A stretch of 64,000 nucleotides of DNA from a virus (lineage: Duplodnaviria > Heunggongvirae > Uroviricota > Caudoviricetes): the IMG/VR virus record IMGVR_UViG_3300042006_000024; one strand, written 5' to 3'. Positions 15,056 to 52,330 of the stretch are shown piece after piece; the stretch's first letter is position 1; the number at the start of each line of letters is the position of its first letter. Position numbers and translations under genes: made by a program. The notes under the pieces were generated by a model, which saw only the letters and a list, made by a program, of their open reading frames with translations, was not told where the DNA came from and made no database searches.

Positions 15056-15071
15056 GCATTTTGTGTGAGGA

Positions 15072-16183: not shown

Positions 16184-16185
16184 GA

Positions 16186-16804: not shown

Positions 16805-16836
16805 ATGTAACTCCAGAGGTGTATAATGTGATTTGT

Positions 16837-17115
16837 TTAGCGAGGGTTTATGATGAATTTGTTAAACACGAGGGCAATCGTGTAGTAAGGTTCAGCACAC
16901 GGGCGGTCTTCGCAGTCATAGTCCATCACGTAACCTAGATTCTCCATGTCGCGAATGAAGCTAACACGATCCCAAGGAACTCGCTTAGAATCGATCCTGA
17001 CGCGCATGTCTGAACTTGCGCGCATGCGTGGGAGTAAGTGATCTTTCAACCACTCTTCGAGCCCCTCACATGCTTGAGTTTCTTGGATCAGGGTGTACAT
17101 CTCGTGTGCGTTCAT
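16837..17115 (-). CDS. hypothetical protein (92 aa)
   Basis: ORF. Confidence 0.45.
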   Translation of the reverse strand: MNAHEMYTLIQETQACEGLEEWLKDHLLPRMRASSDMRVRIDSKRVPWDRVSFIRDMENLGYVMDYDCEDRPCAEPYYTIALVFNKFIINPR

Positions 17116-17306
17116 TGAACCAGACTCACAGTAAATGGCATATGTGTGTACGATGCATATACCAGTGCTGCACCGATACCCATAGGGATTAGAGCTTCAA
17201 AACAGAACCTGCCACTGAATGCATTACCTATGAACAGCAACACAAGGCCACCGATACAAAAGAACGCTCCAGCAAATGTAATGATCAACCATCCAATAAC
17301 AGCCAT
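17112..17306 (-). CDS. small membrane protein (64 aa, 2 TM)
   Basis: Hydrophobic ORF. A TTGATA-16-TGTATAAT promoter-like site lies just upstream at ~17348-17380. Confidence 0.45.
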   Translation of the reverse strand: MAVIGWLIITFAGAFFCIGGLVLLFIGNAFSGRFCFEALIPMGIGAALVYASYTHMPFTVSLVQ

Positions 17307-17367
17307 ACTTCACTCCTAATAATATATAAGCCCAACGCAATAGTGCGTCAGGCTATTATACATGTGA

Positions 17368-18456
17368 TTAGAAGTCAGTATCAAGCTCAGTTTCATCAAC
17401 GTTCATATCAACTTGGCCGGTTTGATACTGAAGGATAGTGTCTTCCTGTGGTGCAGGTTGATCATCATCACCAGTTTCATTCAGGAACTTGCGCATCCAA
17501 GGGATAGGCTCTTTAACCGGAACGGTGAAGTTTGGCTCAACACCATTACGGCGCATGCACTTACCTACATGGTATTGCAAGTAAACGATCAGCTCTTGTT
17601 CAGTCAGACCGACAATCGGGCCTTTGCTGAACAGATACTTGATCCACTCAAGTTCTTGACGATAGACAGCATACAGGATTGCTTCGGCATCAGCCTGACA
17701 TTCAATCGCGATCTTCGCCATATCAGGGTCTTCTTTCGGACTCTGACGCAGGACAAACTGAGTGAAACCACAGTGGAACGCTTCGTCTTGACGGATCAGT
17801 GTAACGATCTCACCAGAACCCTTCATCTTACCACGGTTGGCAAACGAGAAGGTGCAAGCGAAACTTACATGGAAACGAATCTGCTCAAGGGCGTTGACTG
17901 CAACCATGCACAGGTAGAACGCTTTCTTGGTGCGATAGTCGCCGTAGTCGTATTCTTTGATGCACCGCAGGAGTTCGTCATAGTACTTGCTGATGTCGTC
18001 AGAACACTCGGCGATCTCACGGATCTCCTTCATCGTGTCATAGATTTCAGAGGCGTTGGCGTAGACGTTCTCAATGATATGCGTGTAGCTGCTCGAATGG
18101 ATGCCCTCGTAGAAGTTCCATGCGTTGATGAATGCCTCTGCCCATGAGTCAGACACAATCGGCAAGAAACACAGTGCAGGGGCACGGCCTTGAACGCTGT
18201 CGAGGATGATTTGACGCTTCAGGTTCGATGAGAAAACATGCTTCTCAGCTTCGGTGAAGTCGTTGTAGTCAATCTTGTCTTGAGACATGTTGACTTCAGT
18301 TGGTCGCCAGTAGTTGGCCAACTGGTTTTCAGTCAGACGTTTAACCATCGGATACTTGACGACGTCATAGCGCTGAATGTCAACAGTGCCAGCCTCATCG
18401 AAAAACATCTTAGGCTTGTAAGTACCGTTTACATCACGGAAGTATAGAACAGACAT
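17368..18456 (-). CDS. nrdB: ribonucleotide reductase class Ia beta subunit
   Basis: 362 aa with ferritin-like di-iron motifs (EAFHCGF...). Confidence 0.9.
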   Translation of the reverse strand: MSVLYFRDVNGTYKPKMFFDEAGTVDIQRYDVVKYPMVKRLTENQLANYWRPTEVNMSQDKIDYNDFTEAEKHVFSSNLKRQIILDSVQGRAPALCFLPIVSDSWAEAFINAWNFYEGIHSSSYTHIIENVYANASEIYDTMKEIREIAECSDDISKYYDELLRCIKEYDYGDYRTKKAFYLCMVAVNALEQIRFHVSFACTFSFANRGKMKGSGEIVTLIRQDEAFHCGFTQFVLRQSPKEDPDMAKIAIECQADAEAILYAVYRQELEWIKYLFSKGPIVGLTEQELIVYLQYHVGKCMRRNGVEPNFTVPVKEPIPWMRKFLNETGDDDQPAPQEDTILQYQTGQVDMNVDETELDTDF

Positions 18457-18501
18457 TGAAACTCCTAGAAAGGCCGAGTGTTACCTCGGCCATGTTTGAT
18501 G

Positions 18502-35271: not shown

Positions 35272-35721
35272 ATGGCTAGGAATTATAAGCAAGGGGTTTT
35301 CAAGCCCAAGAATCCTTCGAAGTACATTGGTGATCCTACTAAGGTTGTGTTCCGATCCGGTTGGGAAAATAAGCTGATGCGCAAACTCGATGAAAGTTCA
35401 ACCATCATTGGCTGGAATTCCGAGGACGTGGTAATTCCATATATCAGTCCTGTAGATGGTCGCGCTCATCGCTACTTTGTAGACTTCCTCGTTGTGGCTA
35501 AAGGTCCTACAGGTGAGAAGATTATCACCCTGATTGAAGTCAAACCTTATGCCCAAACATTACAACCAACAATGACTGCAAAGAAGACCAAAGAGCGCTT
35601 CATGACTGAGATTGCGACCTATGCAGTCAATCAGGCTAAGTGGGCCGCTGCTGAGGCATATTGCGTCAAACGTGGTTGGAAATTCACAGTACTCACAGAA
35701 AACGATATCAACTTCGTTTAA
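35272..35721 (+). CDS. T4 gp4-like head completion family protein (tentative)
   Basis: N-terminal FKPKNPSKYIGD...FRSGWE recalls the T4 gp4/gp50/gp65 family from memory. Sits just before the baseplate hub genes, as in T4. Confidence 0.35.
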   Translation: MARNYKQGVFKPKNPSKYIGDPTKVVFRSGWENKLMRKLDESSTIIGWNSEDVVIPYISPVDGRAHRYFVDFLVVAKGPTGEKIITLIEVKPYAQTLQPTMTAKKTKERFMTEIATYAVNQAKWAAAEAYCVKRGWKFTVLTENDINFV

Positions 35722-37269: not shown

Positions 37270-38502
37270 ATGGCTCAGTACTCACGTAGCGGCCAATTCG
37301 AACTGGTCAAGGCAACAATCTTGACCAACACGTCGAACCCTGTTGAACTCGACCTTGCAACTGCATTCACTGATGCGGTCATCTATGAGACGATCTTTGA
37401 CTACACAATGTCAGGGAACATCTCGTTTGTTGACACAAACAACCTAGTGCAGAAGTACGGCCTTGGTCGCGGTGAGACTGTGACCTTGCAGTGGTACACT
37501 ACAGGGATTGAAAATTCACCAATCACGGTAACTGGTCAAGTGTATGACTTGCAGGGACCGATGCCTTTAGGTGATCAAGCATCTGGTTTCACTCTGCACT
37601 TTGCATCACCTGAGTTCATCGCATCGATCCAGCAGAAGCTCTTTACGGGCCATAACGAGGCGTGCTCCGACATCGTTGAGCGTATCCTCAAGAAGATCAG
37701 CAGACAAGCGCCAGCGAAGCCTAAGGGGCTCACAGTGACACGCACGCGCAACATTGAACACATTGTCTTCAGTGGTCATACGCCTGATCGTGGTATCGAC
37801 ATGTGCTGTAAACGTGCAATCTCGACAACTGGCATGAATGGTTATTTGTTCTATGAGGACAACTCAGAGTTTCGATTTGTACCGATTGAGGAACTCTATG
37901 CTCAGGATCCTGTCATAGAGTATGTCTATCGTAGTGCGCCAACCTACAACGATGTCGAGAACGCCCACGAAGAGAGCTTCAACACCTTTCAGGAATTCGA
38001 GATCGAAGAGTCAAACAAGTTCATTGATGACCTGCATGATGGTCAGTATGGTTCAGCACACGGTTTCTTGTCGATCATGGATAAGAGCATGACCGTACAC
38101 AACTACAATGCCAAGGCTAAGTTCGACAGCAGCAAGTCGCTTGGTAAAGCTGCCGTATCACTGGATCAGAACTTCAACAGCGAGAACAGTGACCGTGTAA
38201 CCCTGCATTATCGCAACACTAAACAGGATAATGAAGGTAGCATTGTCGATAACAAGCTGAAGCTCCTCAAGTCAAATTCATTCTCGGCGAACATCGGTAT
38301 CTTTGGTAACTCATCGTTGAAAGTTGGTACTACGATGAAGACCTCGATCCCGTCGAACTCGAAAGAATCAATGACACCAAATGCAACAGACAACATCTCA
38401 GGTAAGTTCCTGATTGCCGAGATTAAACATATCCTACAACCTAAATCGTACAATCAACGAGTGAAGTTGCTGAAAGACTCGTTTGAAGAGGTGACATCTT
38501 GA
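37270..38502 (+). CDS. putative baseplate hub protein (gp27-like by position)
   Basis: 410 aa, immediately upstream of the gp5-like gene and overlapping it by 4 nt. Confidence 0.35.
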   Translation: MAQYSRSGQFELVKATILTNTSNPVELDLATAFTDAVIYETIFDYTMSGNISFVDTNNLVQKYGLGRGETVTLQWYTTGIENSPITVTGQVYDLQGPMPLGDQASGFTLHFASPEFIASIQQKLFTGHNEACSDIVERILKKISRQAPAKPKGLTVTRTRNIEHIVFSGHTPDRGIDMCCKRAISTTGMNGYLFYEDNSEFRFVPIEELYAQDPVIEYVYRSAPTYNDVENAHEESFNTFQEFEIEESNKFIDDLHDGQYGSAHGFLSIMDKSMTVHNYNAKAKFDSSKSLGKAAVSLDQNFNSENSDRVTLHYRNTKQDNEGSIVDNKLKLLKSNSFSANIGIFGNSSLKVGTTMKTSIPSNSKESMTPNATDNISGKFLIAEIKHILQPKSYNQRVKLLKDSFEEVTS

Positions 38503-40031
38503 TTGACACAAATAACTTCACACCTTGGTTTGGTGTCATTGAGAACGTTGACGACCCGTTGAAGAATGGTCGTTACCAAGTCAGGGTGTTTGGCTACAAC
38601 TCGGCCAACCCTGGCATGCTCCCTACAGACAACTTGCGCTGGTTCTCTAGCGCAGTGTCAAACAGTGCTGGCTCTCAAAGCGTTGGTCATAGTCCTACTG
38701 GTTACAAAGTCGATTCATTCGTATTCGGTTACTACATCGACCCTGATCATCAAGAAGGTGTCATTCTTGCGGCTATTGCTTCAATGCCAGGCGGTCTGAA
38801 TGATGTCAGTGAGATTGCAACGGGTGAAGGTGGCACGTATCTTGATGAGTTGACCAACAACGCGGTCAAGGGTATTCCAGATGCTCGTGGTGAGACTTGG
38901 GATGAACCAACCTCACGTTATGCAGTCGTCTATCCAAAGAATCAGGTGTATCAGTCTGAGTCGGGCCATGTCATTGAATACGATGATACGCCAGGTGCTG
39001 AGCGCGTCATGATCTTTCACCGTTCAGGCTCATTCGATGAGTTTCACCCTGACGGCAAGCGTGTGTCGAAGGCTGTCAACGATTCGTTTGATATTCACTT
39101 GGGTGGTCATAACATCTTCGTCAGTGGTAGTCTGAACCTTGTTGCATCGGGTGACTATCGTGTCAGTGTCGGTGGTGAGATGTATGTCAAGGCAACCAAA
39201 GTGACATTTGATACACCTGAAGTCGATATCTACGGCATCAGCAGTGCAAATGATCACATGAGCGGTAATGTCAGCGGTGGCTTCCACATTCACCCTGAGA
39301 CCAATCAGCAAGAAACATTGTCGCCGCTTGGCTACTCGCTTGAGTTCACACCGACACCTAAAAACAACTTCTCGTTTCAGTATGAAGAAACACCTTACAC
39401 GCCCGAGATTGTTGATATGGCGGTGTCTAACGGTTTCATCACGCCTGAAGAAGGTGAACGTGTTATGACCGAAGAGCCGATCATTGAAAGTATCGCAGAC
39501 GAACCACCACCGGCTGAAGTCAAACCGGTGATTGCTGAGTGTGGTTTGGCGATTACTAACGGTAAAGTGGATTATTCAGTCAAGTTGTCACCAAACTTTA
39601 CGCTCCGTCAGTTGTCTTTAGGTGCTGTAGTCTCACAATATGCGATCAAAGATCAGAACGGCCTGACTTCAGAGCAGATCATCTGTAACCTGAAGAACCT
39701 CGCTGAGAACGTTCTAGAGCCCTTGAAGGCGAAGTATCCAAACATGATCGTCACCTCTGGCTTCAGAACTGGTAGCGGCAAGAGTCAACACTTGAAAGGT
39801 GAGGCCGCCGATATTCAATTCAAGAATGCATCAAAGGGATTCTACTTCGAAGTTGCGAAGTGGGCTAAAGACAATCTACCGTATGACCAGTTTCTCCTTG
39901 AGTACAAATCGACAGGGACCAGAATGCCCTGGCTACACTTTTCACTCACACGCGGTCGCAGCCAACGTGGCCAAATCATGACGTTCTTTAATCACTCAAA
40001 GTACGCAAACGGATTAGTACAAGTAGCTTAA
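38499..40031 (+). CDS. baseplate central spike (gp5-like N-terminal OB domain) with C-terminal M15-family zinc peptidase domain
   Basis: WFGVIENVDDPLKNGRYQVRVFG matches the gp5 OB N-terminus. C-terminal SGFRTGSGKSQHLKGEAADIQF is an M15 H..G.A.D zinc site. Confidence 0.65.
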   Translation: MIDTNNFTPWFGVIENVDDPLKNGRYQVRVFGYNSANPGMLPTDNLRWFSSAVSNSAGSQSVGHSPTGYKVDSFVFGYYIDPDHQEGVILAAIASMPGGLNDVSEIATGEGGTYLDELTNNAVKGIPDARGETWDEPTSRYAVVYPKNQVYQSESGHVIEYDDTPGAERVMIFHRSGSFDEFHPDGKRVSKAVNDSFDIHLGGHNIFVSGSLNLVASGDYRVSVGGEMYVKATKVTFDTPEVDIYGISSANDHMSGNVSGGFHIHPETNQQETLSPLGYSLEFTPTPKNNFSFQYEETPYTPEIVDMAVSNGFITPEEGERVMTEEPIIESIADEPPPAEVKPVIAECGLAITNGKVDYSVKLSPNFTLRQLSLGAVVSQYAIKDQNGLTSEQIICNLKNLAENVLEPLKAKYPNMIVTSGFRTGSGKSQHLKGEAADIQFKNASKGFYFEVAKWAKDNLPYDQFLLEYKSTGTRMPWLHFSLTRGRSQRGQIMTFFNHSKYANGLVQVA

Positions 40032-40913: not shown

Positions 40914-42659
40914 TTGGGTCATGCTCTCATGTCTTCACTTATTACATCATACGATCCACAGGAACTCAAAGCTTCCTTAATTGAGTACATGCAGGCGAAA
41001 CCTGATTTTGCCGACTTCAACTATGAAGGTTCGACGATCAATACGATCATTGACCTTCTGGTGCGCAATACTCACTACATCGCCTATATGGCAAACATGG
41101 TCAGCTCTGAATCGTTTCTTGATTCGGCACAGTTGCGGGCCAACGTTGTCAGTCATGCTCAGAAACTCTCCTATACACCTAAGTCGCGCACTGCAAGTAC
41201 AGTGGTCGTTGACCTTGAAGTCCTGCCGTCAGCACAACCAACTGAGTTCAGCCTCGTAGCCGAGAAAGGTTCCGTGTTCCTCAACACAATTGGTAACGTG
41301 ACCTATTCGTTTACCAATACAAGCGAGATCACCCTACTCAAGACAATTGAGAACAAGTTCATTGCGAGTAATGTTGAACTGAAGCAAGGTCAGTTGCGCT
41401 CTCAGCGTTACCTGTATAACTCCAGTACAAAGACTATCGGCATCATGAATGCTGACATCGATACAGCGACTGTGCGCGTGTTTGTGACTGATCCGGTGAC
41501 AGGCGAGATCACTGAGTATCTGAAGGTCGAAAACATCGTAGACGTCGGCACAGACAGCGCTGTGTTCTATCTGTTCGAGAACACACTGGGTAAATACGAC
41601 ATTCAGTTTGGTCGCAACGTTCTAGGTGCTGAACCGATAAACAACTCGGTCGTTCGAATTGAATACGTGGCTGTTGAAGCCGAACACGCAAACGGTCTGA
41701 AAACCCTGATTGCAGGTACACCGATTCAAGGTTACTCGAACATCAAGGTCACTGTGGTTACCGAGGCTTACGGTGGTGCTGAGAAGAGCGACATTGACTT
41801 CATCAAGTTCCTTGCACCAAAGATCTGGGAAACTCAGAACCGTGCAGTACGTGACAAAGACTATGTGGCGATCATGTTGCGTGAATTCACCTTCATCAAG
41901 TCTGCAATCGCCTGGGGTGGTGAAAAGAACGTTCCGCCGTACTATGGTCGAGTGTTCCTATGTGCAATCCCACAAGACGGCTTTGTTATCGCCGATACAG
42001 TGAAACAGACCATCGAGAGACGTATTACCGAGTTCTCCGTTGCTTCGATTACGCCTGAAGTGGTTGACGCGTCATACATCGGTCTTCAGTTGGATATCGG
42101 TATTCTGTATAACGCCAATCAGACGACCGATACGTTTGCTCAGACTGTTGCTGCGGTGAAGACTGCTGCGAACACATACAATCAGAACAACCTGCGTCTG
42201 TTTGACTTCTGGTACAACGATAGCGAGTTGTCCCGTCAAATCACCAAAGCAGCGCCGTCGATCTACTCGATTGAAACGCACAAGAAGGCCTTTTTTGACA
42301 CGCCAATCAACCGCAATGTGATGAAGCACTACATTGCCGAGTTCCTGAATGAAGTTGAACCTGGCTCTCTGGTTGTGTCGGATGTTGTATTTGACATCAA
42401 TGCGACAAGTCAAAAGGTGCTTGATGATGGTGCAGGCAAGATCATCAAACAGATTATCAAAGACGGTATAACTACCAATGAGACAATCGGTAGCATCAAT
42501 TACACCACGGGCTATGTCGAGTTCAATGCACTGTTGCTTGACCCTGGCACGCTGCGCATGACGGTCACTCCTGTAGCAAGCAACTTCTACACTGATCGGA
42601 ACTATGTGGTGTACATTGACACTATCAATGTTGATTTGCTAACAACCAGAAAGGTTTAA
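40914..42659 (+). CDS. baseplate J-like protein (gp6-like)
   Basis: 581 aa, directly after the gp25-like gene. Confidence 0.5.
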   Translation: MGHALMSSLITSYDPQELKASLIEYMQAKPDFADFNYEGSTINTIIDLLVRNTHYIAYMANMVSSESFLDSAQLRANVVSHAQKLSYTPKSRTASTVVVDLEVLPSAQPTEFSLVAEKGSVFLNTIGNVTYSFTNTSEITLLKTIENKFIASNVELKQGQLRSQRYLYNSSTKTIGIMNADIDTATVRVFVTDPVTGEITEYLKVENIVDVGTDSAVFYLFENTLGKYDIQFGRNVLGAEPINNSVVRIEYVAVEAEHANGLKTLIAGTPIQGYSNIKVTVVTEAYGGAEKSDIDFIKFLAPKIWETQNRAVRDKDYVAIMLREFTFIKSAIAWGGEKNVPPYYGRVFLCAIPQDGFVIADTVKQTIERRITEFSVASITPEVVDASYIGLQLDIGILYNANQTTDTFAQTVAAVKTAANTYNQNNLRLFDFWYNDSELSRQITKAAPSIYSIETHKKAFFDTPINRNVMKHYIAEFLNEVEPGSLVVSDVVFDINATSQKVLDDGAGKIIKQIIKDGITTNETIGSINYTTGYVEFNALLLDPGTLRMTVTPVASNFYTDRNYVVYIDTINVDLLTTRKV

Positions 42660-42660
42660 T

Positions 42661-44313
42661 ATGGCCGCTAAAGCGATCCAACATTCGATTCCGGGCCAAC
42701 TGTCCTCGCACATCAACGAAGAGTACCCGCTCTTCGTTGAGTTCCTGAGTGGGTACTATGAATGGCTTGAGGGTACAGACAGCCCCTATTATCAACTGCG
42801 CAACCACTTGTCAGCACTCGACCTGAAAGAATCGCTTGACGGGTATGCTACGCACCTGAAAAACGAATACTTGTCGACCATCCCTGAGAAGGTGTTGGCC
42901 GACAAAGAAATCCTGATCAAGCATTCGAAACAGTTCTTTCAGTCGCTCGGTAGTGAAAAGTCGTTTCAGTTCCTGTTCAAGATCCTCTATAACGAGGACA
43001 TCGAACTGTACTACCCGAAAAACGACATCCTGCGTGCGTCTAACGCAACATGGATCGATAACGAAAACCTGATGTACGTGTCGAACAGCGGCAACGTAAA
43101 CAACTTCCTGTACCGTCGTATTACGCAGACGCGTGAGCCGTTCCCAGGGGTGTTTGAGTACGCCACAGCAACAGTTAACCGCATCATCAACCGCTATGCC
43201 AACAAGTTCAACTTTGCCGAGTTGTACCTGAACGACATTGTTGGTACATTCGATTTGAATTACCCTGTTGTTGTTGACAATATCACTGAATGGATTTTGC
43301 CGATTGCTGATGGTGTCGAGGTCATTTCACCTGGTCTGAACTACACGGTCGACAACAACTTGACTTATGCGGGTGATTCGACATTCGACATCACTGTTCA
43401 GGCAACTGGGCCTGGTAGCGTTGATACCCGTTATACCACGATCATGACTGCAAGTGATTTGACCGTCAAAGTGGGTGGCGTTGAGATTACTGGCTACACA
43501 TACGACGGCAAGATGCTTGCGCACGCCAGTATCTTGCAGGGCTCTACAGTGACGATCAGTTTCCCTGTGTATGCAGGTTTCTTGTCGATTGACCGTGTAG
43601 GTGCACTTGGTCAGATTGTTGATGTGAATTTGATTGATACGCCGTTCGGTATTGTTACGCCGCAGCTCTACACATCTGCCGATGGTGGTTCAGGTGGTTC
43701 GATTCGCATCATCCCTGCACTGACCAAACGCATCGAAGGTTACTTCCTTGACAATGAAAGCTTCCTGTCGACCAACAAAGTGTTGCAGGATTCTGAATAC
43801 TATCAGGACTATTCGTATGTGATCAAAGCAGGTATCGGCGTTGATCGCTACCGCGATGTGGTGATGAATGTTCTCCACCCTGCTGGTCTGAAGATGTATG
43901 GTGAAGTGAACATCATCGAGTTCATCAAGTTGATCATTCGCGATGCCAACTTTACGGTCACGGTGAATTTCATGGGTGAGATTTCGTTCCAGTCGTCTGT
44001 TTTCCTATACAACCGAGTCGGCTTCGTTCAGGACTTCATGTATGCGGAAACAGAAGGGACGTACAAAACAAATGACTTCAAAGACATTGTCATTGCTGAT
44101 GTGTTCGAGGGTGTTAAGCCGCTCAACCGTCACTTTACAAACGTTACTGTCCTGACACCAGGTGGCTATGTTTACGCAGGCTATTTCGATGCGGGTTATA
44201 ACACTGATCTTGTGACTGATGATCCGTCATACATTGATGAGACTTACATTGAAGACGGTTACGAATACATCGAGCTTGACGGTGCTACAGCGTTCGGCCA
44301 TTACACTAGTTAA
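42661..44313 (+). CDS. baseplate wedge / tail-fibre connector protein (550 aa)
   Basis: ORF with a 1-nt gap after the gp6-like gene, before the fibres. Confidence 0.35.
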   Translation: MAAKAIQHSIPGQLSSHINEEYPLFVEFLSGYYEWLEGTDSPYYQLRNHLSALDLKESLDGYATHLKNEYLSTIPEKVLADKEILIKHSKQFFQSLGSEKSFQFLFKILYNEDIELYYPKNDILRASNATWIDNENLMYVSNSGNVNNFLYRRITQTREPFPGVFEYATATVNRIINRYANKFNFAELYLNDIVGTFDLNYPVVVDNITEWILPIADGVEVISPGLNYTVDNNLTYAGDSTFDITVQATGPGSVDTRYTTIMTASDLTVKVGGVEITGYTYDGKMLAHASILQGSTVTISFPVYAGFLSIDRVGALGQIVDVNLIDTPFGIVTPQLYTSADGGSGGSIRIIPALTKRIEGYFLDNESFLSTNKVLQDSEYYQDYSYVIKAGIGVDRYRDVVMNVLHPAGLKMYGEVNIIEFIKLIIRDANFTVTVNFMGEISFQSSVFLYNRVGFVQDFMYAETEGTYKTNDFKDIVIADVFEGVKPLNRHFTNVTVLTPGGYVYAGYFDAGYNTDLVTDDPSYIDETYIEDGYEYIELDGATAFGHYTS

Positions 44314-44340
44314 ATAAGACTAAACGAATTCGAGGTTACT

Positions 44341-46212
44341 ATGCTAGCAGACAAAACAAACGTAGTTAAGCGGTCGAGCAAAGGCACGCCCTTAACCTAT
44401 GTTGAAATGGATCGCAACTTCTCCGAACTTGTGAATGCGATTGACGACGTTGATGCACTCACAACTGATGTCAATACACTCACAACTACCGTTGATGAGT
44501 TTGTGACTGATGTCGGTGATCCTGATGTAGGGTCAACCCTCGTTGGGCATAAACGCACTGATATAGCTGACACTATTTCAAACGTCAATATGATGTTGTC
44601 GAGTCTTATAGTCAACATCTGGGAGTATGCCAACTATATTACAAGCAAGCCTACATCATCGCCTTCTACATGGGACTGGACACCTGCAACCGCAGCAGCT
44701 TCAGCGTTTGTGAAGTCTAAGGGTGGCGGTTGGATTCGTTATCCTGCTGGTAGCTATCCTCATACCAAGATGGTTAAACAACACGGCGTGAGTTGGATGG
44801 GTGACGGTTCAAGCGTAACTTACATCACCACACTGGCATCGACGTCCGCTGTGCCTTATGGCCTCATTGAAGTTGAAGCAGGTGCTGTATCGTCGTCTCA
44901 CATGGTTGGCATGCACATCATGGGTAGCGCAGTTGCAGGCTTTGCTCAAGCAACTGTCAACGCAACTCAGTGGGGCATGTACGCCAAAGCTCAATGGGAT
45001 GCAACGTACCAGCATGGTGGTCTGTGGTATTCTGAGTTCCGTGATGTTCGATTCTCTAACTTCAACTACGGAGTGTGGACTCGTGGTGGTTATACGATCA
45101 ACAACTACAAACGCCCAATTCAATTCGTGACGTTCGACAAAGTATTCATCCAAGTACCTACAGGTGGTGAAGCTCTTCGTATGACAGGGCAGCACGGTCA
45201 GATTGAATTCCGTGGTGGTTCTGCTGAAGGTCGCGACGGTGTTGTTGCCGCCCTCTGCATCAATATCGGTATGGACCCTGATCCAGCGACTATGGCTGAT
45301 AACGCTGCCACTGGTCAAGGTGAAAACACATCAGATGCTCCTGGCACTGGCAGTGCTGTGCAAGCTCCGTACAACGTCAACTTCGGTAACGGTTTCTCTA
45401 TCCAGAAGTCCCGTAAAGGTATTGCTGCTAAGAACTGCCGTCAAATCTCGGTTCAAGGTGCTTGGGTCGAAGACATTGCAGAGTTGATTGACTTGTCTAC
45501 TAACGCTCACTTGACGTTTGAGTCAAACCACTTGGCTAACGCGGCTGACGGCTCTGTTGGTGGTACAGCGGGTACAGGTTATCTGTTCAAGATGGCCACT
45601 AGCTCGGCATTGGAGTTCAAATCGACTTCTGATGTTATTGGTACAGTTGATAACTACCTTGAGCCGACTACTAACTTGAATAACCTTCGCAGTCTGAAAA
45701 TAGAAGGTCTTGCTTTTGGTGATACTTATCAGAAGTTTGTGGCTGCGGGTTACAAGACTATGGTTCTCACAGGTTCGGCCATCGACATTGGCGCTCACAA
45801 GTTTGTGGTTATCAACCCGGCGCCTGGTGACCCTAGTTTGAAGTTGGATATCCTGAAAGCTACTATTGCTCCAGGTGAGCGTGTAACTATTCGTGCACTG
45901 ACTGGGCCTATCACAGTGGTCAACACTGGCAACATCTCGTTGAACGGTGAACCTGCAATCTGTCTACCACTGTCAGGCGCGATGGTCCTTGAACGACTCT
46001 ATCAAGTCATTGGCAACGTTGAGTGGGTATTGATATCAGTAACCGAACAACGCGCTACTGCCGCCCCTACAGACGGCTTCTACTACCCACAGGCACACAG
46101 AGTCTGGCGTCGCGATGCAGCAGCTTCTGGACCAATGGGTTGGATTTGCACAACAGCTGGACTGGCAGGTACAACTGCTGTGTTTAAAGCGATGCCTAAC
46201 CTGGCAGCGTAA
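44341..46212 (+). CDS. tail fibre / tailspike protein 1
   Basis: 623 aa. N-terminal anchor shared with fibre 2. Gly/Ser/Thr-rich beta-rich body (YPAGSY). Confidence 0.6.
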   Translation: MLADKTNVVKRSSKGTPLTYVEMDRNFSELVNAIDDVDALTTDVNTLTTTVDEFVTDVGDPDVGSTLVGHKRTDIADTISNVNMMLSSLIVNIWEYANYITSKPTSSPSTWDWTPATAAASAFVKSKGGGWIRYPAGSYPHTKMVKQHGVSWMGDGSSVTYITTLASTSAVPYGLIEVEAGAVSSSHMVGMHIMGSAVAGFAQATVNATQWGMYAKAQWDATYQHGGLWYSEFRDVRFSNFNYGVWTRGGYTINNYKRPIQFVTFDKVFIQVPTGGEALRMTGQHGQIEFRGGSAEGRDGVVAALCINIGMDPDPATMADNAATGQGENTSDAPGTGSAVQAPYNVNFGNGFSIQKSRKGIAAKNCRQISVQGAWVEDIAELIDLSTNAHLTFESNHLANAADGSVGGTAGTGYLFKMATSSALEFKSTSDVIGTVDNYLEPTTNLNNLRSLKIEGLAFGDTYQKFVAAGYKTMVLTGSAIDIGAHKFVVINPAPGDPSLKLDILKATIAPGERVTIRALTGPITVVNTGNISLNGEPAICLPLSGAMVLERLYQVIGNVEWVLISVTEQRATAAPTDGFYYPQAHRVWRRDAAASGPMGWICTTAGLAGTTAVFKAMPNLAA

Positions 46213-46220
46213 CAACACCG

Positions 46221-46250
46221 AAGCCTGCTTAGTTGCAGGCTTTGTCTTTT
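46221..46250 (+). terminator. intrinsic terminator after fibre 1 (probably leaky)
   Basis: aagcctgc-ttagtt-gcaggctt then TGTCTTTT. Confidence 0.45.
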
Positions 46251-46287
46251 GTGGTAGTAAATAGTACATAATAAATTCGAGGTTACT

Positions 46288-48534
46288 ATGCTGTCAGATA
46301 AAGCGAACATACTCCTAAGGGCGATTAAGGGTTCTGAACTTACCCACGTCGAAATGGACACGAACCTGGACGAGATCAAAAAGGTCATTGATGATGTGCA
46401 TGCGCTGAATGACGCCGTTGAGGCCGATTCTCCGTTGAAAGCGCCATTGGCGAGTCCTGCGTTCACAGGGCTGCCCACTGCCCCTACGCCATCGGTTGAA
46501 GATAATTCTGATCTCCTGGCTACGACTGCCCACGTTCATAGCGCAGTCGACGTTCTAGGGGCTGACATTCTGAGCCGCTTGAAGTTGCGCCCTGAAACGT
46601 TCGGCGCAGTGGGTGATGGTGTAGCTGACGATACCGCCGCATGGAACTTGCTGCTAGATGCAATGTTGCTGACCAAGCGAAAAGGTGAATGTGTTCCAGG
46701 TGCACAGTACAAGATCACTTCAGTCCTAACGCGCACGCTGGTTGATACCGATGTGTTTGACCTCGATATGAATGGCGCGACGTTCATTCAGGGTGGCAAC
46801 AATAGCGTCCTTGTACTGACTAACAGCGTTAATGGTACTGTCACATCAGTAACCGAGAATGTCCAAATATCGTACAACTTGGGCAACGGCGCGACCAATA
46901 CCTATGTGATGAAAGTTACATCAGTTGGTCACGGCTTCACGACTCCTGGTCAGATTGGTAAGATCTTCAGTGACGATATCGTTCCTGACTTCGATGGCTC
47001 TAATCAATACTGCGGTGAGTTCTTCACTGTTAGTGCAATTGAAAGCGCCGATATCTTCTACACCTTTGGCGTCTTCGATGAAACATATCTGACCAACGTC
47101 AAAGTTTGTCGGCCGTCGGGTGCTAAAGTCAACATCGACAACTTCGCAGGTAAATCAACTTGGGCTGATTCGGTCACTGCGAGCTTCTGCACTATCTCGG
47201 GTTTGATTAATCCGGTCTTCGGTGGTACTGTTCGAGCGAATGACATAAACGCACCGTTCTTGAACTTTACAAGTACATACCGTGCCAAGCTGAGCAAGAT
47301 CATTGGTCGCAATATCAAGAACCGCCCTGACTTGGGTGCTTATGGTTATTTGATTAACGACAGCGCAGCCTACTACAGTGACATTTCAGGCATCGATTGC
47401 ATCTTTGCACGTCATGATTACACCACAAGTTCCCCATCAGCAGTCGCGGGCGATGACAAACCGTTCCTTCGTGGTCGTACAATTGGTTCAGTCGTTCGAG
47501 ACAGCGTAGGTAACTCGTTTGATACCCACAGTCCATGCCTGCGTATCACCTTTGAAAACTGCAAGCCAGTTGACTCACATCGTGGTTACGACTACGGTGG
47601 TGCTGGTATTCAGATTCGCGGTAACGATTGCCAAATCATCAACTGCGACGTATCACATTCGAAGATTGGTGTTGCTCAAAGCAGTGCAAGTAAAACGGGT
47701 CCAGCCAAACTGCTGATCGATGGGTTAAAGTATCGTGGCCCGAACGGTCATACACCAGTCGTGATTAACGGTATCACTGCATTCGAAACCATCGTTACTT
47801 TCCGTGGTGACATTGAAAGTCAAGCAAGCTCGATTTTCGAAGTGACTAACGCTACTCTGATCGTCAATGGCACGCGTGTGACAATGCGTCCAACTGATAA
47901 CGGTGCAGCAATGGTCAACTTGAACACTGGTGGCAATCTTGAATGGCAGGGTGGTTCACTCAACATCACCAATGGCAACAGCCACAAGATCGTTGCACAC
48001 CTTGATACTGCAACCACAGCGAAAGTTGATGGTCTGTCAGTTCGCGGTGTTACTGGTCGTCTGTCGTACCTTGCTACTTCAGCATCACAATACGCAATTG
48101 AATCACGCTTCACTAACATCCAACTTGATGCTGCATTGCCAGGCAACCCGTTCTTAGGTTATGAAGCTACATTACCTAAAGTCAGTGCTGAGTTCTGCAT
48201 AGGCTACAACTTGCGTCCATTGGCGTATCGTGTGTTCACGTACGGTACTACGGGCAACCAGGCAATTGATTTGCAGTTTGCAGGCAATCAGTCGATATTC
48301 CTTCGAGTTGAAGCGACAGCAACTGGTGTTGTAATTAACTCATTGACTCAGGGTGCGTTCGCTGGTCAGCGTTTGATTATCAACAACCGCAACTCATCGA
48401 CGTTCTCGCTGAACGTGGCAAACAACTCAGGTGGGTTATTGACAATGGCTGCAAGTGCTACACTGACAGCTGGTCGAGGTATTACGTTAGTGTGGGATGG
48501 TAGCACATGGCGTTCTGCTGATAACCACGCATAA
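46288..48534 (+). CDS. tail fibre / tailspike protein 2 with pectate-lyase-superfamily beta-helix
   Basis: FGAVGDGVADDTAAWN motif typical of right-handed beta-helix depolymerases. 748 aa. Confidence 0.65.
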   Translation: MLSDKANILLRAIKGSELTHVEMDTNLDEIKKVIDDVHALNDAVEADSPLKAPLASPAFTGLPTAPTPSVEDNSDLLATTAHVHSAVDVLGADILSRLKLRPETFGAVGDGVADDTAAWNLLLDAMLLTKRKGECVPGAQYKITSVLTRTLVDTDVFDLDMNGATFIQGGNNSVLVLTNSVNGTVTSVTENVQISYNLGNGATNTYVMKVTSVGHGFTTPGQIGKIFSDDIVPDFDGSNQYCGEFFTVSAIESADIFYTFGVFDETYLTNVKVCRPSGAKVNIDNFAGKSTWADSVTASFCTISGLINPVFGGTVRANDINAPFLNFTSTYRAKLSKIIGRNIKNRPDLGAYGYLINDSAAYYSDISGIDCIFARHDYTTSSPSAVAGDDKPFLRGRTIGSVVRDSVGNSFDTHSPCLRITFENCKPVDSHRGYDYGGAGIQIRGNDCQIINCDVSHSKIGVAQSSASKTGPAKLLIDGLKYRGPNGHTPVVINGITAFETIVTFRGDIESQASSIFEVTNATLIVNGTRVTMRPTDNGAAMVNLNTGGNLEWQGGSLNITNGNSHKIVAHLDTATTAKVDGLSVRGVTGRLSYLATSASQYAIESRFTNIQLDAALPGNPFLGYEATLPKVSAEFCIGYNLRPLAYRVFTYGTTGNQAIDLQFAGNQSIFLRVEATATGVVINSLTQGAFAGQRLIINNRNSSTFSLNVANNSGGLLTMAASATLTAGRGITLVWDGSTWRSADNHA

Positions 48535-48546
48535 TCGCAAGCCAAT

Positions 48547-48576
48547 AAAAAGCCCAGTTAATTCTGGGCTTTTTGC
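48547..48576. terminator. bidirectional intrinsic terminator
   Basis: agcccag-ttaatt-ctgggct flanked by a T-run on both strands. Sits between convergent genes. Confidence 0.6.
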
Positions 48577-48579
48577 TTA

Positions 48580-49089
48580 TTACGAAACAGTAATGACAGT
48601 GGTGTCAGTAACTGCGTTGTTGCTCACAGAACGTACTGTGATAGTGGCAGTACCAGAAGTCACACCGGTAACCAGACCAGTTGCAGACACAGTGGCGACA
48701 GCAGGCGCTGACGATGTGTAGGTCACAGCTTTGTTCCATGCTGAGACTGGCGCGACAGTCGACGTCAGTTGCTGAGTGCCCGCTACGGCGATAGTAGCAG
48801 TCGCTGGCAGCATGTCGATGCTAGTCACAGGCAGATAGGTCGTAGGAGAATCGAAGAACGATGTGATGTTCGCAAAGTTCAAGTTCACTGCGGTGCCCTG
48901 GAAGTCCAACTGGAGTTGAGTGCTTGTCAGAGTAACAGTGGTTGCTTTCAAGAACGCTTTGATGCGATCACGAATCCTCTTCTGCGAAGACAGTAGGACA
49001 TTGGCCCCAGACACTTTCCAACCTTTATCGGTTAGAACCACCGTCTTGTTATTGAGTCGTGGTTTGACAGCCCATTGTGGATATTTCAT
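48580..49089 (-). CDS. Ig-like (Big_2-type) domain protein, possible capsid or tail decoration protein
   Basis: C-terminal ATVSATGLVTGVTSGTATITVRS Ig-like repeat. I prefer the ATG at 49089 with a GGAG RBS. The ORF track starts at GTG 49122. Confidence 0.55.
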   Translation of the reverse strand: MKYPQWAVKPRLNNKTVVLTDKGWKVSGANVLLSSQKRIRDRIKAFLKATTVTLTSTQLQLDFQGTAVNLNFANITSFFDSPTTYLPVTSIDMLPATATIAVAGTQQLTSTVAPVSAWNKAVTYTSSAPAVATVSATGLVTGVTSGTATITVRSVSNNAVTDTTVITVS

Positions 49090-49122
49090 GTTGCGGTGCT
49101 CCATCTTATAAGATTGTAACAC

Positions 49123-49130
49123 TATTTATA
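49123..49130 (-). promoter_or_regulatory. T4-type late promoter TATAAATA
   Basis: Exact octamer on the minus strand, about 30 nt upstream of the Ig-like gene start. Confidence 0.5.
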
Positions 49131-49153
49131 AGACAGAGCTTTGTGAAGGTAGG

Positions 49154-49459
49154 TTATTTAGCGTTATTACTGATCAGCAACATACGCTCATCATCACAGT
49201 ACAAGTAGGAATCCCACAACAGAATACCTTCACCCGTCTGAGTCATGCGACCCAGGACATTACGATCATCGAGACGCTTGATCACTCCGATATGCGCGTT
49301 GATGACAATCGTATGGTTGCCAGCGAGTTTCCTGATCAGCCAGTGGCGAAAGTTTGCAAGCATTGTTGCACTGCTGAACGGCAGAATATCACCAGAGCCA
49401 GCAGGTGGTGCTTCGCGCAAGTCGAGGTAATCGGGTTCTGTTTGAGACCATGAAGTCAT
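49154..49459 (-). CDS. hypothetical protein (101 aa)
   Basis: ORF. Confidence 0.45.
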   Translation of the reverse strand: MTSWSQTEPDYLDLREAPPAGSGDILPFSSATMLANFRHWLIRKLAGNHTIVINAHIGVIKRLDDRNVLGRMTQTGEGILLWDSYLYCDDERMLLISNNAK

Positions 49460-50193: not shown

Positions 50194-50814
50194 TCAGACG
50201 TGACTCACCTCAAAGTTTTCATACACCACCCAACCACCTTCAGACTCAGGACCCTCGTTGTCGATGACATAAGCGCCTGCTTTGAAGTAGAACGGGAACT
50301 CGGTCCACGCCGCATCGACAGTCACTGCATACACCAAGCCGTTAAGCTTGATCTGCAAGACATCGTCAGTGCCCATTGCCAAGCTATAGCTGAACGACTC
50401 GCCAAGCTTGCAGGGTACTGTGAGGACTTTGACGGCGGTGCCGCTAGGCTTCAGTCGCAAGTCAACCCGCGCAACGCCATTCCACCATGTAACCATCAGG
50501 AATGGGTTAGGTGCTTTGTGCGCGTGAATTTGACCGATGATGACTTTACCTGAACTCGGCGCAAGCTCGACACGAACCGTGCCTTGCATGGTGTGAACAG
50601 CTTCCCCTGCTACCCAGTTATAAGACTCGGCACTGTCAGGAAGCGTTTCACGACTTTCAGTGCGTGGACTAGAGCTAGAACCAGATGTGTCACCTAGTAC
50701 TGAGCACCAATAGTTGGTGTGGCCTTTAGGATCGGTCCACACCAGATTGGCTGGAGGTTTCTCAGGGTACAGATAGACCTGACCGTGTGCAGTGATATTG
50801 CCAAAGCTGAACAT
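50194..50814 (-). CDS. polysaccharide lyase family 7 (alginate-lyase-like) protein
   Basis: PL7 signature blocks RTESRE, QIH and YFKAGAY in the right order. 206 aa. Confidence 0.55.
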   Translation of the reverse strand: MFSFGNITAHGQVYLYPEKPPANLVWTDPKGHTNYWCSVLGDTSGSSSSPRTESRETLPDSAESYNWVAGEAVHTMQGTVRVELAPSSGKVIIGQIHAHKAPNPFLMVTWWNGVARVDLRLKPSGTAVKVLTVPCKLGESFSYSLAMGTDDVLQIKLNGLVYAVTVDAAWTEFPFYFKAGAYVIDNEGPESEGGWVVYENFEVSHV

Positions 50815-50867: not shown

Positions 50868-51269
50868 TTACTCAGCATTCTCGAACAGTGCAGCAGGTGA
50901 CAGGCCGTAGTTTATGGCAATACGTTGCATGTTCTCCAATACCTGTTCGATCAGCTGGTTACTGTCATGTGCGTTCTGAAGTGTTTGAATCAGATTTTGG
51001 TGCGCGTTTGGTGCGTAGCCTTCTTTGACAATTTCGAGCCATCCCATTCCTTCTGACGGATCGAAGATAGCCAAGTACTCATCGTCTGCAATCAAACAAC
51101 CTGCGGCACACATAGTCCCACCAGTGCCACGATATGCGCAAGTGCCGGTGGTGATACCACTATCCTCTTCTTTCATCGAACGCTTACCTTGCTTGACCAG
51201 ATGACGTGCAACCTGATCGAACACTTGTTGCGCTGTTGCATCTTTCAATGTAGCCAGTGTGATAGTCAT
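50868..51269 (-). CDS. Cys-motif domain protein (family copy 4)
   Basis: VARHLVKQGK...CAYR...MCAAGCLIADDEY...LQNAHD. Confidence 0.6.
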   Translation of the reverse strand: MTITLATLKDATAQQVFDQVARHLVKQGKRSMKEEDSGITTGTCAYRGTGGTMCAAGCLIADDEYLAIFDPSEGMGWLEIVKEGYAPNAHQNLIQTLQNAHDSNQLIEQVLENMQRIAINYGLSPAALFENAE

Positions 51270-51769: not shown

Positions 51770-51963
51770 GCTTGTTCCTTAGGAATGGTGTGACCGATTT
51801 TCAAACGTGAGCCCAGCCAGTAATGCTTTTCCATGCGCTGAAGATCATTGATGCTGATGGTCGACATTTCTTTCCAATGCTTGAGTGCATACGCCTCAAG
51901 CTCGTTTTCAGGAAAGAGGGTGATGATACCATCACCCGTCATTTCAGCTCGCATTGAAAGCAT
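51766..51963 (-). CDS. hypothetical protein (65 aa)
   Basis: ORF with an ATGA overlap. Confidence 0.4.
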   Translation of the reverse strand: MLSMRAEMTGDGIITLFPENELEAYALKHWKEMSTISINDLQRMEKHYWLGSRLKIGHTIPKEQA

Positions 51964-52330
51964 CCAGGTTGAGTTCGTAGGTAGTGCCTACTTCTTTCAT
52001 CTTCACAAGGACGCTTTCAATGAGACCAGACCGATCGTGTGCGCGTTGCAGAGCGATGATCAAGTTTTGGTGGTGCTCAGGAACAGTCTGATTGGATACT
52101 AATCGATCCCAAGTACCGCCACCGTTTCCAGCGCCATTGTCGAATTGTGGCAGATATTCATCATCAGCGATGAGGCAACCTGCCGCACACATCAAGCCAT
52201 TGACACCACGGTAGAGGCACATTTGTGAACCAGGATTGACCGAACGCTTACCTTGTTTGATCATATGCGTGACAACCTGGTCAAACACTTGTTGAGCGGT
52301 TGCATCTTTCAGGGTGGCCAAAGTAATCAT
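51944..52330 (-). CDS. Cys-motif domain protein (family copy 5)
   Basis: N-terminal 18 aa almost identical to copy 4. CLYR...MCAAGCLIADDEY. Confidence 0.6.
   Translation of the reverse strand: MITLATLKDATAQQVFDQVVTHMIKQGKRSVNPGSQMCLYRGVNGLMCAAGCLIADDEYLPQFDNGAGNGGGTWDRLVSNQTVPEHHQNLIIALQRAHDRSGLIESVLVKMKEVGTTYELNLDAFNAS

What the first reader, a model, noticed from the sequence alone, without database searches (positions are those of the whole stretch)
44314..46340. Two tandem receptor-binding proteins with a shared N-terminal anchor and a shared upstream cassette
Both fibre genes are preceded by AATTCGAGGTTACTATGCT, that is the RBS plus the first codons. Both begin ML(A/S)DK(T/A)N(V/I)..R..KG..LT(Y/H)VEMD.N..E....IDDV.AL. 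After about 45 aa they diverge completely. Fibre 2 carries the pectate-lyase-superfamily FGAVGDGVADDTAAW beta-helix signature. Fibre 1 has a different Gly/Thr/Ser-rich body. This looks like a cassette system for swapping or stacking depolymerase modules on one baseplate attachment site, and it implies two different glycan receptors or a branched fibre. TAAATA sequences 22-25 nt upstream of each ATG are partial late-promoter matches.
Basis: seen in the sequence. Interest (0 to 1): 0.55.

Follow-up and report, generated by a model that had tools for sequence, protein, structure and literature searches.

The report
Two swappable phage tailspike genes
A T4-like phage carries two neighbouring tailspike (sugar-degrading receptor-binding) genes that share a 40-residue N-terminal docking module and an identical ribosome-binding leader, and related phages show the enzyme bodies being swapped exactly at that module's edge: a clear but ordinary example of modular host-range evolution.

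Summary
The 19-nt string AATTCGAGGTTACTATGCT occurs exactly twice, at 44327 and 46274 (0 expected). Each copy lies in front of an intact gene: 44341-46212 (623 aa) and 46288-48534 (748 aa). Their first 40 residues are 55% identical (E 3e-10) and nothing else aligns.

Both proteins are right-handed beta-helix tailspikes. Fibre 2 is 37-46% identical to Klebsiella phage capsule depolymerases, including the characterised K5 depolymerase of phage K5-4.

Each gene is its own late transcription unit. TAAATA sits at -30 to -25, followed by an unstructured leader, and each gene ends in its own terminator hairpin.

Five related backbones (four metagenomic lineages and Pseudomonas phage pf16) show the cassette behaviour directly. 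One keeps body 2 and replaces body 1. One keeps body 1 and replaces body 2. One carries the two body types on the opposite anchors. The breakpoints fall at codon 37-40 (motif IDDV) and at the next promoter or the stop codon.

The two anchors are old, slot-specific paralogues. The anchor occurs at the N-terminus of about 160 protein clusters and has no Pfam family. Docking to the baseplate is inferred, not shown.

Verdict: a new member of a known kind (modular anchor-type tailspikes), of modest interest.

The parts
42661..44313 (+). Baseplate wedge gene (gp7-like, 550 aa) immediately upstream. It is the presumed docking partner of the anchors.
   Evidence: Pfam Baseplate_wedge, E 4e-12. PDB sequence match to T4 gp7, E 6e-4. 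65% identical to pf16 gp212. The docking role is inferred from gene order only.
44311..44316 (+). TAAATA late-promoter-like element of tailspike 1. It overlaps the wedge gene's stop codon.
   Evidence: It sits at the same -30 to -25 position as in gene 2. Ten of the 14 TAAATA copies in the window lie in sense orientation upstream of genes.
44327..44345 (+). Conserved leader, Shine-Dalgarno sequence (GAGG), ATG and second codon of tailspike 1.
   Evidence: Exact 19-nt repeat. The leader is unstructured as RNA.
44341..44460 (+). N1 anchor module (residues 1-40) of tailspike 1.
   Evidence: 55% identical to N2. 98-100% identical in L002 and L003 and 75% in L015 slot 1. Homology with L002 ends at 44459.
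44461..46212 (+). Exchangeable body of tailspike 1: a neck (about residues 57-128) followed by a right-handed beta-helix.
   Evidence: AF2 pLDDT 81. Foldseek matches AlgE4 epimerase, alginate epimerase/lyase, HK620 and Sf6 tailspikes, and viral pectate-lyase-superfamily proteins. Metagenomic homologues carry many different N-termini.
46219..46253 (+). Intrinsic terminator of tailspike 1. It travels with body 1.
   Evidence: Hairpin of 10 pairs plus a T-run. dG -18.7 kcal/mol, z -3.35. L002 has a different hairpin here.
46258..46263 (+). TAAATA late-promoter-like element of tailspike 2.
   Evidence: Homology with L002 resumes exactly here.
46274..46292 (+). Conserved leader, Shine-Dalgarno sequence, ATG and second codon of tailspike 2.
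   Evidence: The 30 nt upstream of the ATG are 100% identical in all four slot-2 genes compared.
46288..46407 (+). N2 anchor module (residues 1-40) of tailspike 2.
   Evidence: Homology with L003 ends at about 46397.
46420..46575 (+). Tail-fibre repeat linker (APLASPAFTGxPTAPT...ATTAHV) of tailspike 2.
   Evidence: About 49% identical over 9% of the query to E. coli and Salmonella tail fibre proteins that carry PF03406. PHROG tail-fibre families match residues 34-92.
46576..48534 (+). Exchangeable depolymerase body of tailspike 2: a beta-helix plus a C-terminal beta-sandwich.
   Evidence: Pfam Phage_depo_C at residues 665-742, E 7e-12. 46% identical to the Klebsiella phage P11 tailspike and 36.6% to the K5-4 ORF38 K5 depolymerase. 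AF2 pLDDT 81.6 and Foldseek matches to LKA1 gp49, K1 lyase and AP22 gp54.
48547..48577 (.). Shared bidirectional terminator between tailspike 2 and the convergent Ig-like gene.
   Evidence: Hairpin dG -18.7 kcal/mol, z -4.5. Homology with L003 resumes at 48538, just after the stop codon.

Best explanation
This locus is the receptor-binding module of a pf16-like (distantly T4-like) myovirus. It consists of two monocistronic, late-expressed tailspike genes placed directly after the baseplate wedge genes (gp25-like, gp6-like, gp7-like).

Each gene is built in the same order:
- a TAAATA late promoter;
- a conserved, unstructured leader of about 18-24 nt with a GAGG Shine-Dalgarno sequence;
- a 40-residue N-terminal anchor (N1 or N2);
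- an exchangeable right-handed beta-helix polysaccharide-depolymerase body;
- a terminator.

The anchors most likely dock the trimeric spikes onto the baseplate periphery (inferred). N1 and N2 are old paralogues that stay tied to their gene position, so they probably recognise two non-equivalent sites. The virion would then carry two different depolymerases at once and address two surface glycans.

Host range evolves by recombination that replaces everything downstream of the conserved ...N(V/A)IDDV motif. The conserved anchor and leader serve as the 5' homology. The next promoter cassette (slot 1) or the sequence after the stop codon (slot 2) serves as the 3' homology.

Shown here: gene structure, the shared module, the folds, homology to characterised depolymerases, and the swap events with their breakpoints. 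Inferred: physical docking, simultaneous display, enzyme activity, substrates and the host.
For: Shared module and exact leader.

Baseplate context: gp53-like, gp5-like, gp25-like, gp6-like and gp7-like genes lie upstream.

Folds: both AF2 models are beta-helices with pLDDT about 81. They match tailspikes and depolymerases.

Fibre 2 homology: it matches the experimentally characterised K5 depolymerase K5-4 ORF38 at E 2e-97 (PMC5496888) and Pfam Phage_depo_C.

Swaps among relatives:
- L002 (87-88% nt identity) has a different 584-aa body on an identical N1 and keeps fibre 2 at 93% identity.
- L003, L004 and L005 (97% nt identity) keep fibre 1 at 95% and carry a different 784-aa body on N2.
- L015 has a fibre-2-type body (48% identity, full length) on N1 and a fibre-1-type body (84%) on N2.

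Breakpoints, seen base by base, lie at 44459 and 46258 for slot 1 and at about 46397 and 48538 for slot 2.

Anchors: N1 and N2 are slot-specific orthologous groups. Between the window's N1 and N2, 14 of the 22 conserved residues use different codons.

Anchor distribution: the anchor profile hits 163 clusters in a library clustered at 50% identity. Nearly all hits lie at residues 1-40, on very different bodies.

Promoters and terminators.

Published background: pf16 gp213 carries the same anchor and was identified as the tail fibre. pf16 also has a T4-type late sigma factor and TATAAATA promoters (PMC5587285).
Against: No experiment or structure shows that the 40-aa module binds the baseplate. 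AF2 gives it low confidence (pLDDT 26-50) in both models.

The docking partner is not identified. The wedge protein is only the neighbouring gene.

TAAATA matches just 6 of 8 positions of the T4 consensus, and the motif is not enriched in the window overall (14 found, 15 expected). Only its placement is non-random. The late sigma factor was not looked for in this window.

Depolymerase activity and substrates are inferred from 37-46% identity (fibre 2) or from fold alone (fibre 1).
Confidence: 0.78

Rival explanations
1. Anchor-branch architecture, as in phage G7C or KP32. Only tailspike 1 binds the baseplate, and tailspike 2 hangs on tailspike 1.
For: This is common in phages with two RBPs (PMC6872550). 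pf16 itself has one anchor-type protein plus three spikes with a second kind of N-terminus, which probably branch.
Against: The N-terminus of fibre 2 is homologous to that of fibre 1, not a distinct docking peptide. No T4gp10-like or other branching domain was detected in fibre 1. In L002 everything after residue 40 of fibre 1 is replaced while fibre 2 is retained. In L015 the bodies sit on the opposite anchors. Any docking site would therefore have to lie inside the 40-aa anchor itself.
Confidence: 0.12
2. Both anchors compete for the same baseplate site. Particles would then carry a mixture of the two spikes, or a population would hold particles with either one, rather than two dedicated positions.
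For: The anchors share 22 of 40 residues, including the KG..LT..EMD.N and IDDV motifs. The identical leader would give matched expression. Relatives such as L009, L013, L039 and pf16 have a single anchor-bearing gene, which fits a single kind of site.
Against: N1 and N2 have stayed distinct and position-specific in four lineages. N1 copies are 75-100% identical to each other and N2 copies 65-100%. N1 against N2 is 52-57% in all but one pairing (65% for L003 slot 2 against L015 slot 1). Synonymous divergence between them is saturated and there is no homogenisation. This is what differentiated binding sites would produce.
Confidence: 0.2
3. The resemblance is a recent tandem duplication or gene-conversion remnant with no functional meaning, and one copy is decaying.
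For: An exact 19-nt identity next to diverged sequence could be a short conversion tract.
Against: Both ORFs are intact, and each has close full-length homologues in other phages. The coding part of the anchors is only 58% identical at the nucleotide level, with 14 synonymous codon differences among the 22 conserved residues. That indicates an old duplication under purifying selection. The two-gene arrangement is conserved in four lineages.
Confidence: 0.02

Closest known systems
Pseudomonas putida phage pf16 (Chakrabartyvirus) tail-fibre locus gp212-gp216
   Same: It has the same baseplate gene order. The wedge protein is 65% identical. gp213 begins with the same anchor (MTADKTKVVQRGIKGSKLTHPELDGNFQELVNVIDDV, 62% identical to N1). 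Each spike gene has its own ATAAATA-type promoter and terminator (PMC5587285).
   Different: pf16 has only one anchor-bearing protein, followed by three spikes that share a second, unrelated N-terminal module (MSI..VN.I.D..G.N.I.V.DL..K). The exact 19-nt leader is absent and the bodies are different.
Dual-RBP podoviruses K1-5 and SP6 (adapter type)
   Same: Two different depolymerase tailspikes are displayed together. Each is held by a short conserved N-terminal peptide, and the bodies are exchanged horizontally (PMC6872550).
   Different: Those phages use a dedicated small adapter protein with T4gp10-like domains, and two unrelated docking peptides of 7 and 11 residues. Here the two 40-residue anchors are paralogues, no adapter gene or gp10-like domain was detected, and the virion is a contractile-tailed T4-like phage.
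Anchor-branched RBP systems (G7C gp66/gp63.1, KP32, KP34, Klebsiella phages K5-2 and K5-4)
   Same: They have tandem RBP genes, beta-helix depolymerase bodies and a conserved N-terminus with a variable body. The fibre 2 body is homologous to the second RBP (K5 depolymerase) of K5-4.
   Different: In those systems RBP2 docks on a branching domain of RBP1 through a peptide unrelated to the RBP1 anchor. Here both N-termini are homologous and no branching domain is found.
Multi-tailspike myoviruses (Ackermannviridae CBA120 TSP1-4, phi92, Klebsiella jumbo phages)
   Same: They are contractile-tailed phages that carry several beta-helix depolymerases to widen host range. Both bodies here match them structurally.
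   Different: Those phages assemble spikes through large XD/gp10-like N-terminal domains into branched complexes. Here the only shared element is a 40-residue module.

Membership tests
Phage tailspike / pectate-lyase-superfamily beta-helix depolymerase | Right-handed parallel beta-helix body | tested here: met
   AF2 models of both proteins have pLDDT about 81, with the body mostly above 90. Foldseek probability is 1.00 against HK620, Sf6, LKA1 gp49, the K1 lyase, AP22 gp54 and AlgE4.
Phage tailspike / pectate-lyase-superfamily beta-helix depolymerase | Sequence homology to an experimentally characterised depolymerase | tested here: met
   Fibre 2 is 36.6% identical over 81% of its length to the K5-4 ORF38 K5 depolymerase, E 2e-97. 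It also matches Pfam Phage_depo_C above the cut-off. Fibre 1 has only fold-level similarity and no characterised sequence homologue.
Phage tailspike / pectate-lyase-superfamily beta-helix depolymerase | Homotrimer with glycan-cleaving activity | not testable with these tools
   This needs expression, a spot or halo assay on host polysaccharide, and SEC-MALS or a multimer structure.
Anchor-branched RBP system (G7C / KP32 type) | T4gp10-like branching domain in the first RBP | tested here: not met
   Fibre 1 has no Pfam family at E <= 0.01. Its PHROG hits cover only the neck (residues 57-128) and the C-terminus. The sensitivity of these searches for a short gp10 fragment is limited.
Anchor-branched RBP system (G7C / KP32 type) | Second RBP carries a docking peptide unrelated to the first RBP's anchor | tested here: not met
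   The two N-termini are homologous: 55% identity over 40 residues, E 3e-10.
Adapter-type dual RBP (K1-5 / SP6) | Separate small adapter protein offering two docking sites | tested here: inconclusive
   There is no small gene between the wedge gene and the spikes. The neighbour is a 550-aa gp7-like wedge protein with no detectable gp10-like domain. No structure model was made of it.
T4-type late transcription unit | TATAAATA-like -10 element a short distance upstream of late genes | tested here: met
   The TAAATA core (6 of 8 consensus positions) lies at -30 to -25 of both genes. Ten of the 14 copies in the window lie in sense orientation upstream of genes, mostly structural ones. Two of those are full TATAAATA.
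T4-type late transcription unit | gp55-type late sigma factor encoded by the phage | not tested
   It is reported for pf16 (gp98, PMC5587285). It was not searched for in this window.
Horizontally exchanged RBP cassette | Near-identical backbones with unrelated bodies, and breakpoints at a module boundary | tested here: met
   blastn breakpoints lie at 44459 and 46258 (against L002) and at 46397 and 48538 (against L003). L015 has the reciprocal arrangement of bodies.

The most novel reading that the evidence does not exclude
The two paralogous 40-residue anchors would define two non-equivalent docking sites directly on a simplified T4-like baseplate that lacks gp8-gp12 and any gp10-type adapter. 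This would be a minimal 'two-socket' design, distinct from the adapter and anchor-branch schemes described so far.

In addition, the perfectly conserved promoter-leader unit (100% identical across lineages whose anchor coding sequence has drifted to 70-82% identity) would be selected as a portable expression and recombination boundary. It would let any beta-helix body be plugged into either socket.

The anchor is an undescribed module present at the N-terminus of about 160 protein clusters, so it would be a broadly usable handle for engineering host range.
Probability: 0.3. Interest if true: 0.5.

Novelty: new member of a known kind. Interest (0 to 1): 0.3.

Why it matters
The locus gives a clean natural experiment on how tailspike specificity is exchanged. 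Closely related backbones swap each of two depolymerase bodies independently, and even move them between anchors. The junctions are resolved to a few bases, at a conserved IDDV motif and at a promoter cassette.

It also flags a short N-terminal docking module that has no Pfam family or aligned PHROG region and is widespread in uncultured phages. Such a module could be used for plug-and-play engineering of receptor-binding proteins in pf16-like phages.

It does not reveal a new principle. Modular anchors and depolymerase swapping are well documented in Klebsiella, E. coli and Acinetobacter phages.

Tried and rejected
- Nucleotide search of 42000-49200 against GenBank phages found only a 331-nt match to pf16, so no sequenced close relative is available.
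- PDB sequence searches gave nothing useful for either spike. Fold search was needed instead.
- Pfam on the isolated N-terminal regions gave only sub-threshold noise, and PHROG hits do not cover residues 1-40. The anchor therefore has no named family.
- A third copy of the anchor elsewhere in the window: none found.
- An RNA structure in the conserved leader: none. The z-scores are +1.0 and +1.2, so the leader is unstructured.
- Sigma-70 promoter scan: not above the shuffle expectation.
- Overall enrichment of TAAATA: absent, with 14 found against 15 expected. Only its position upstream of genes is informative.
- The metagenome scan with the wedge protein added only one new informative locus, L039.
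- The pseudogene or recent-duplication reading was rejected on codon evidence.
- Host identity could not be settled. There are no tRNAs. GC is 48%, against 51% for the pf16 locus. The alginate lyase gene and the alginate-epimerase-like fold of fibre 1 only hint at an alginate-producing host such as Pseudomonas.


Full report
**1. Checking the observation**

The 19-nt string AATTCGAGGTTACTATGCT occurs at 44327-44345 and 46274-46292 and nowhere else in the window, even allowing three mismatches. Shuffles give 0 matches. Each copy spans the Shine-Dalgarno sequence (GAGG), the ATG and the second codon of an intact ORF: 44341-46212 (623 aa, 'fibre 1') and 46288-48534 (748 aa, 'fibre 2').

BLASTP aligns only residues 1-40, at 55% identity, 73% positives and E 3e-10. 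Every other segment has E above 2. A tblastn search with the first 60 residues finds just these two copies in the window.

TAAATA lies at 44311-44316 and 46258-46263, at the same -30 to -25 position in both genes. FGAVGDGVADDTAAW starts at residue 105 of fibre 2.

The stated coordinates cut off most of gene 2. The real unit runs from 44311 to about 48577.

**2. Genomic context**

The window is part of a phage genome. Upstream lie the following genes:

- a gp53-like gene;
- a gp5-like spike with an OB domain and a Peptidase_M15 domain;
- a DUF5675 gene;
- gp25-like and gp6-like genes;
- a 550-aa gp7-like 'Baseplate_wedge' gene that ends 27 nt before fibre 1.

The only sequenced relative is Pseudomonas putida phage pf16 (Chakrabartyvirus), whose wedge protein is 65% identical. 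Its published analysis describes it as a peripheral T4-like phage with a late sigma factor and TATAAATA late promoters. That analysis identifies gp213 as the tail fibre and proposes gp214-216 as putative depolymerases (PMC5587285).

**3. The two proteins**

Neither protein has a solved sequence relative.

*Fibre 2.* It matches Pfam Phage_depo_C at residues 665-742. It is 46% identical over 83% of its length to tailspikes of Klebsiella phages P11, P6315 and P1011. It is 36.6% identical (E 2e-97) to ORF38 of phage K5-4, which the record annotates as 'K5 depolymerase' and which was characterised experimentally (PMC5496888). Residues 45-95 are a tail-fibre repeat linker shared with many enterobacterial tail fibres. 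Its AF2 model (pLDDT 81.6) is a beta-helix plus a beta-sandwich. The best matches are LKA1 gp49, the K1 capsule lyase, AP22 gp54 and phiK64-1 S2-4.

*Fibre 1.* It has no Pfam family. Its AF2 model (pLDDT 81.1, body mostly above 90) is also a right-handed beta-helix. It matches the AlgE4 mannuronan epimerase, an alginate epimerase/lyase and the HK620 and Sf6 tailspikes. Among viral models it matches 'pectate lyase superfamily' proteins, with a top E of 3e-19.

The G+T+S content is the same in both proteins, 26.6% and 26.9%. Both are depolymerase-type tailspikes.

**4. Transcription units**

TAAATA is not enriched in the window as a whole (14 found, 15 expected). However, 10 of the 14 copies lie in sense orientation 6-51 nt upstream of called gene starts. 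Most of these genes are structural, including the gp6-like gene, both spikes, the Ig-like gene and the alginate lyase. Two copies are full TATAAATA.

Fibre 1 is followed by a 10-bp hairpin and a T-run at 46219-46253 (dG -18.7, z -3.35). Fibre 2 is followed by a hairpin at 48547-48577 (dG -18.7, z -4.5), shared with the convergent gene. The leaders themselves are unstructured.

Each spike is thus a self-contained unit of late promoter, leader, ORF and terminator, as are the spike genes of pf16.

**5. Related loci show the cassette behaviour directly**

Metagenomic contigs with the same backbone were recovered.

| Locus | Similarity to window | Slot 1 (N1 anchor) | Slot 2 (N2 anchor) |
|---|---|---|---|
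| L002 | 87-88% nt | unrelated 584-aa Beta_helix body; N1 differs from the window's at one residue | fibre 2 kept, 93% aa |
| L003, L004, L005 | 97% nt | fibre 1 kept, 95% aa | unrelated 784-aa body |
| L015 | N1 75% and N2 65% identical to the window's over 40 aa | fibre-2-type body, 48% identity, full length | fibre-1-type body, 84% identity |

L015 also carries a third spike with another kind of N-terminus.

The blastn and base-by-base comparisons place the junctions as follows:

- Slot 1: at 44459 (after ...IDDVDAL, codon 40) and at 46258 (the TAAATA of the next gene).
- Slot 2: at about 46397 (after ...VIDDV, codon 37) and at 48538 (just past the stop codon).

The body of fibre 1 also occurs in metagenomes behind many other N-termini. 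P0077 joins the linker of fibre 2 to the L002-type body.

Numbers of anchor-bearing genes vary among relatives. L009, L013 and L039 each show one anchor-bearing gene next to the wedge gene. pf16 has one, plus three spikes with a second N-module.

**6. The anchors**

Across the four two-spike lineages the anchors fall into two position-specific groups:

- N1 copies are 75-100% identical to each other.
- N2 copies are 65-100% identical to each other.
- N1 against N2 is 52-57% in all but one pairing; L003 slot 2 against L015 slot 1 reaches 65%.

Within the window, the 40 codons split into 8 identical, 14 synonymous-different and 18 non-synonymous. This indicates an old duplication under purifying selection with no homogenisation.

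By contrast, the 30 nt from TAAATA to the ATG are 100% identical among all slot-2 genes and 80% identical between slots. The exact 19-mer is therefore a conserved regulatory leader, not a trace of recent duplication.

A profile of the two anchors finds 163 clusters (E <= 1e-3) in a library of 1.84 billion representatives. Nearly all hits lie at residues 1-40 of proteins with very different bodies: beta-helices, fibres with C-terminal chaperone-like ends, and others. A few hits are spurious internal repeats. The module has no Pfam family or aligned PHROG region.

**7. Mechanism**

The best-supported reading has three parts:

- The 40-residue modules dock two different trimeric depolymerase spikes onto the baseplate. 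This follows from their position next to the wedge genes, their strict N-terminal location and their independence from the body.
- The virion then addresses two glycans.
- Specificity is renewed by recombination at the anchor/body boundary.

The distinct, slot-tied anchors favour two non-equivalent sites over competition for one site.

A branched arrangement (fibre 2 hanging on fibre 1) is unlikely. No branching domain is detected. The N-termini are homologous. Everything beyond residue 40 of fibre 1 can be replaced while fibre 2 is retained.

Docking, co-display, activity, substrates and host are inferences. AF2 is not confident about the anchors (pLDDT 26-50).

**8. Comparison with known systems and novelty**

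Conserved N-terminal anchors, docking peptides and horizontal exchange of depolymerase bodies are well described for Klebsiella and coliphage RBPs (PMC6872550).

- The closest relative is the pf16 locus.
- The closest functional analogy is the K1-5/SP6 dual-spike design, but that design uses a dedicated gp10-like adapter and unrelated peptides.
- The G7C/KP32 anchor-branch scheme fails two defining features here.

This is therefore a new member of a known kind. Its particular features are paralogous twin anchors and a sharply conserved promoter-leader cassette in an uncultured pf16-like myovirus. Interest is modest, at 0.3.

Noticed in passing
window 50194-50814 (-): A 206-aa PL7-type alginate lyase gene (Pfam Alginate_lyase2, E 5e-33) has its own TAAATA element 42 nt upstream. 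It is conserved in L002, L003 and L004. Together with the alginate-epimerase-like fold of fibre 1, it hints at an alginate-producing host.
   Followed up: partly
window 50868-51269 (-) and 51944-52330 (-): Two small paralogous genes (132 and 127 aa, 54% identical, E 8e-45) both begin ITLATLKDATAQQVFDQV. They have no Pfam family and are separated by two other small genes.
   Followed up: partly
L001 (pf16) 12673-18507: pf16 gp214, gp215 and gp216 share a second kind of N-terminal module (MSI..VN.I.D..G.N.I.V.DL..K...). They also share a near-identical upstream string, TTTCTTTGACTATCATAAATAGA. This is a second anchor/promoter cassette family in the same phage group.
   Followed up: partly
L015 4983-6671: A third spike gene (562 aa) follows the two anchor-bearing genes. 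Its N-terminus (MSYDTLATAVNALSIANDEL) is of a third type. The same type heads metagenomic homologues of the fibre 1 body (P0003, P0016, P0020).
   Followed up: no
window 35272-35721 (+): A TnsA-like endonuclease N-terminal domain protein (149 aa, E 6e-20; weak Phage_endo_I match) sits directly upstream of the baseplate module, with a TAAATA element at -39. It is conserved in L003.
   Followed up: no
window 38499-40031 (+): The gp5-like central spike combines the Gp5 OB domain with a Peptidase_M15 domain at residues 387-456, rather than a lysozyme domain.
   Followed up: no
window 547-579: Two TAAATA elements face in opposite directions 22 nt apart (547 on +, 574 on -; the latter is a full TATAAATA). 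They lie between the divergent genes 1-528 (-) and 597-1565 (+) and look like a divergent late promoter pair.
   Followed up: no
window 48580-49122 (-): An Ig-like (Big_2) protein gene converges on fibre 2 and shares its terminator. It has TATAAATA and TAAATA elements upstream. PHROG hits suggest a structural or decoration protein.
   Followed up: no
P0077 (metagenomic protein, 580 aa, contig of 1806 bp): This recombinant joins the tail-fibre-repeat linker of fibre 2 (SPLASPAFTGLPTAPTPSVEDSSDLLATTAHVHSAVDVLGA) to a body of the L002 slot-1 type. It shows a second recombination boundary downstream of the linker.
   Followed up: no
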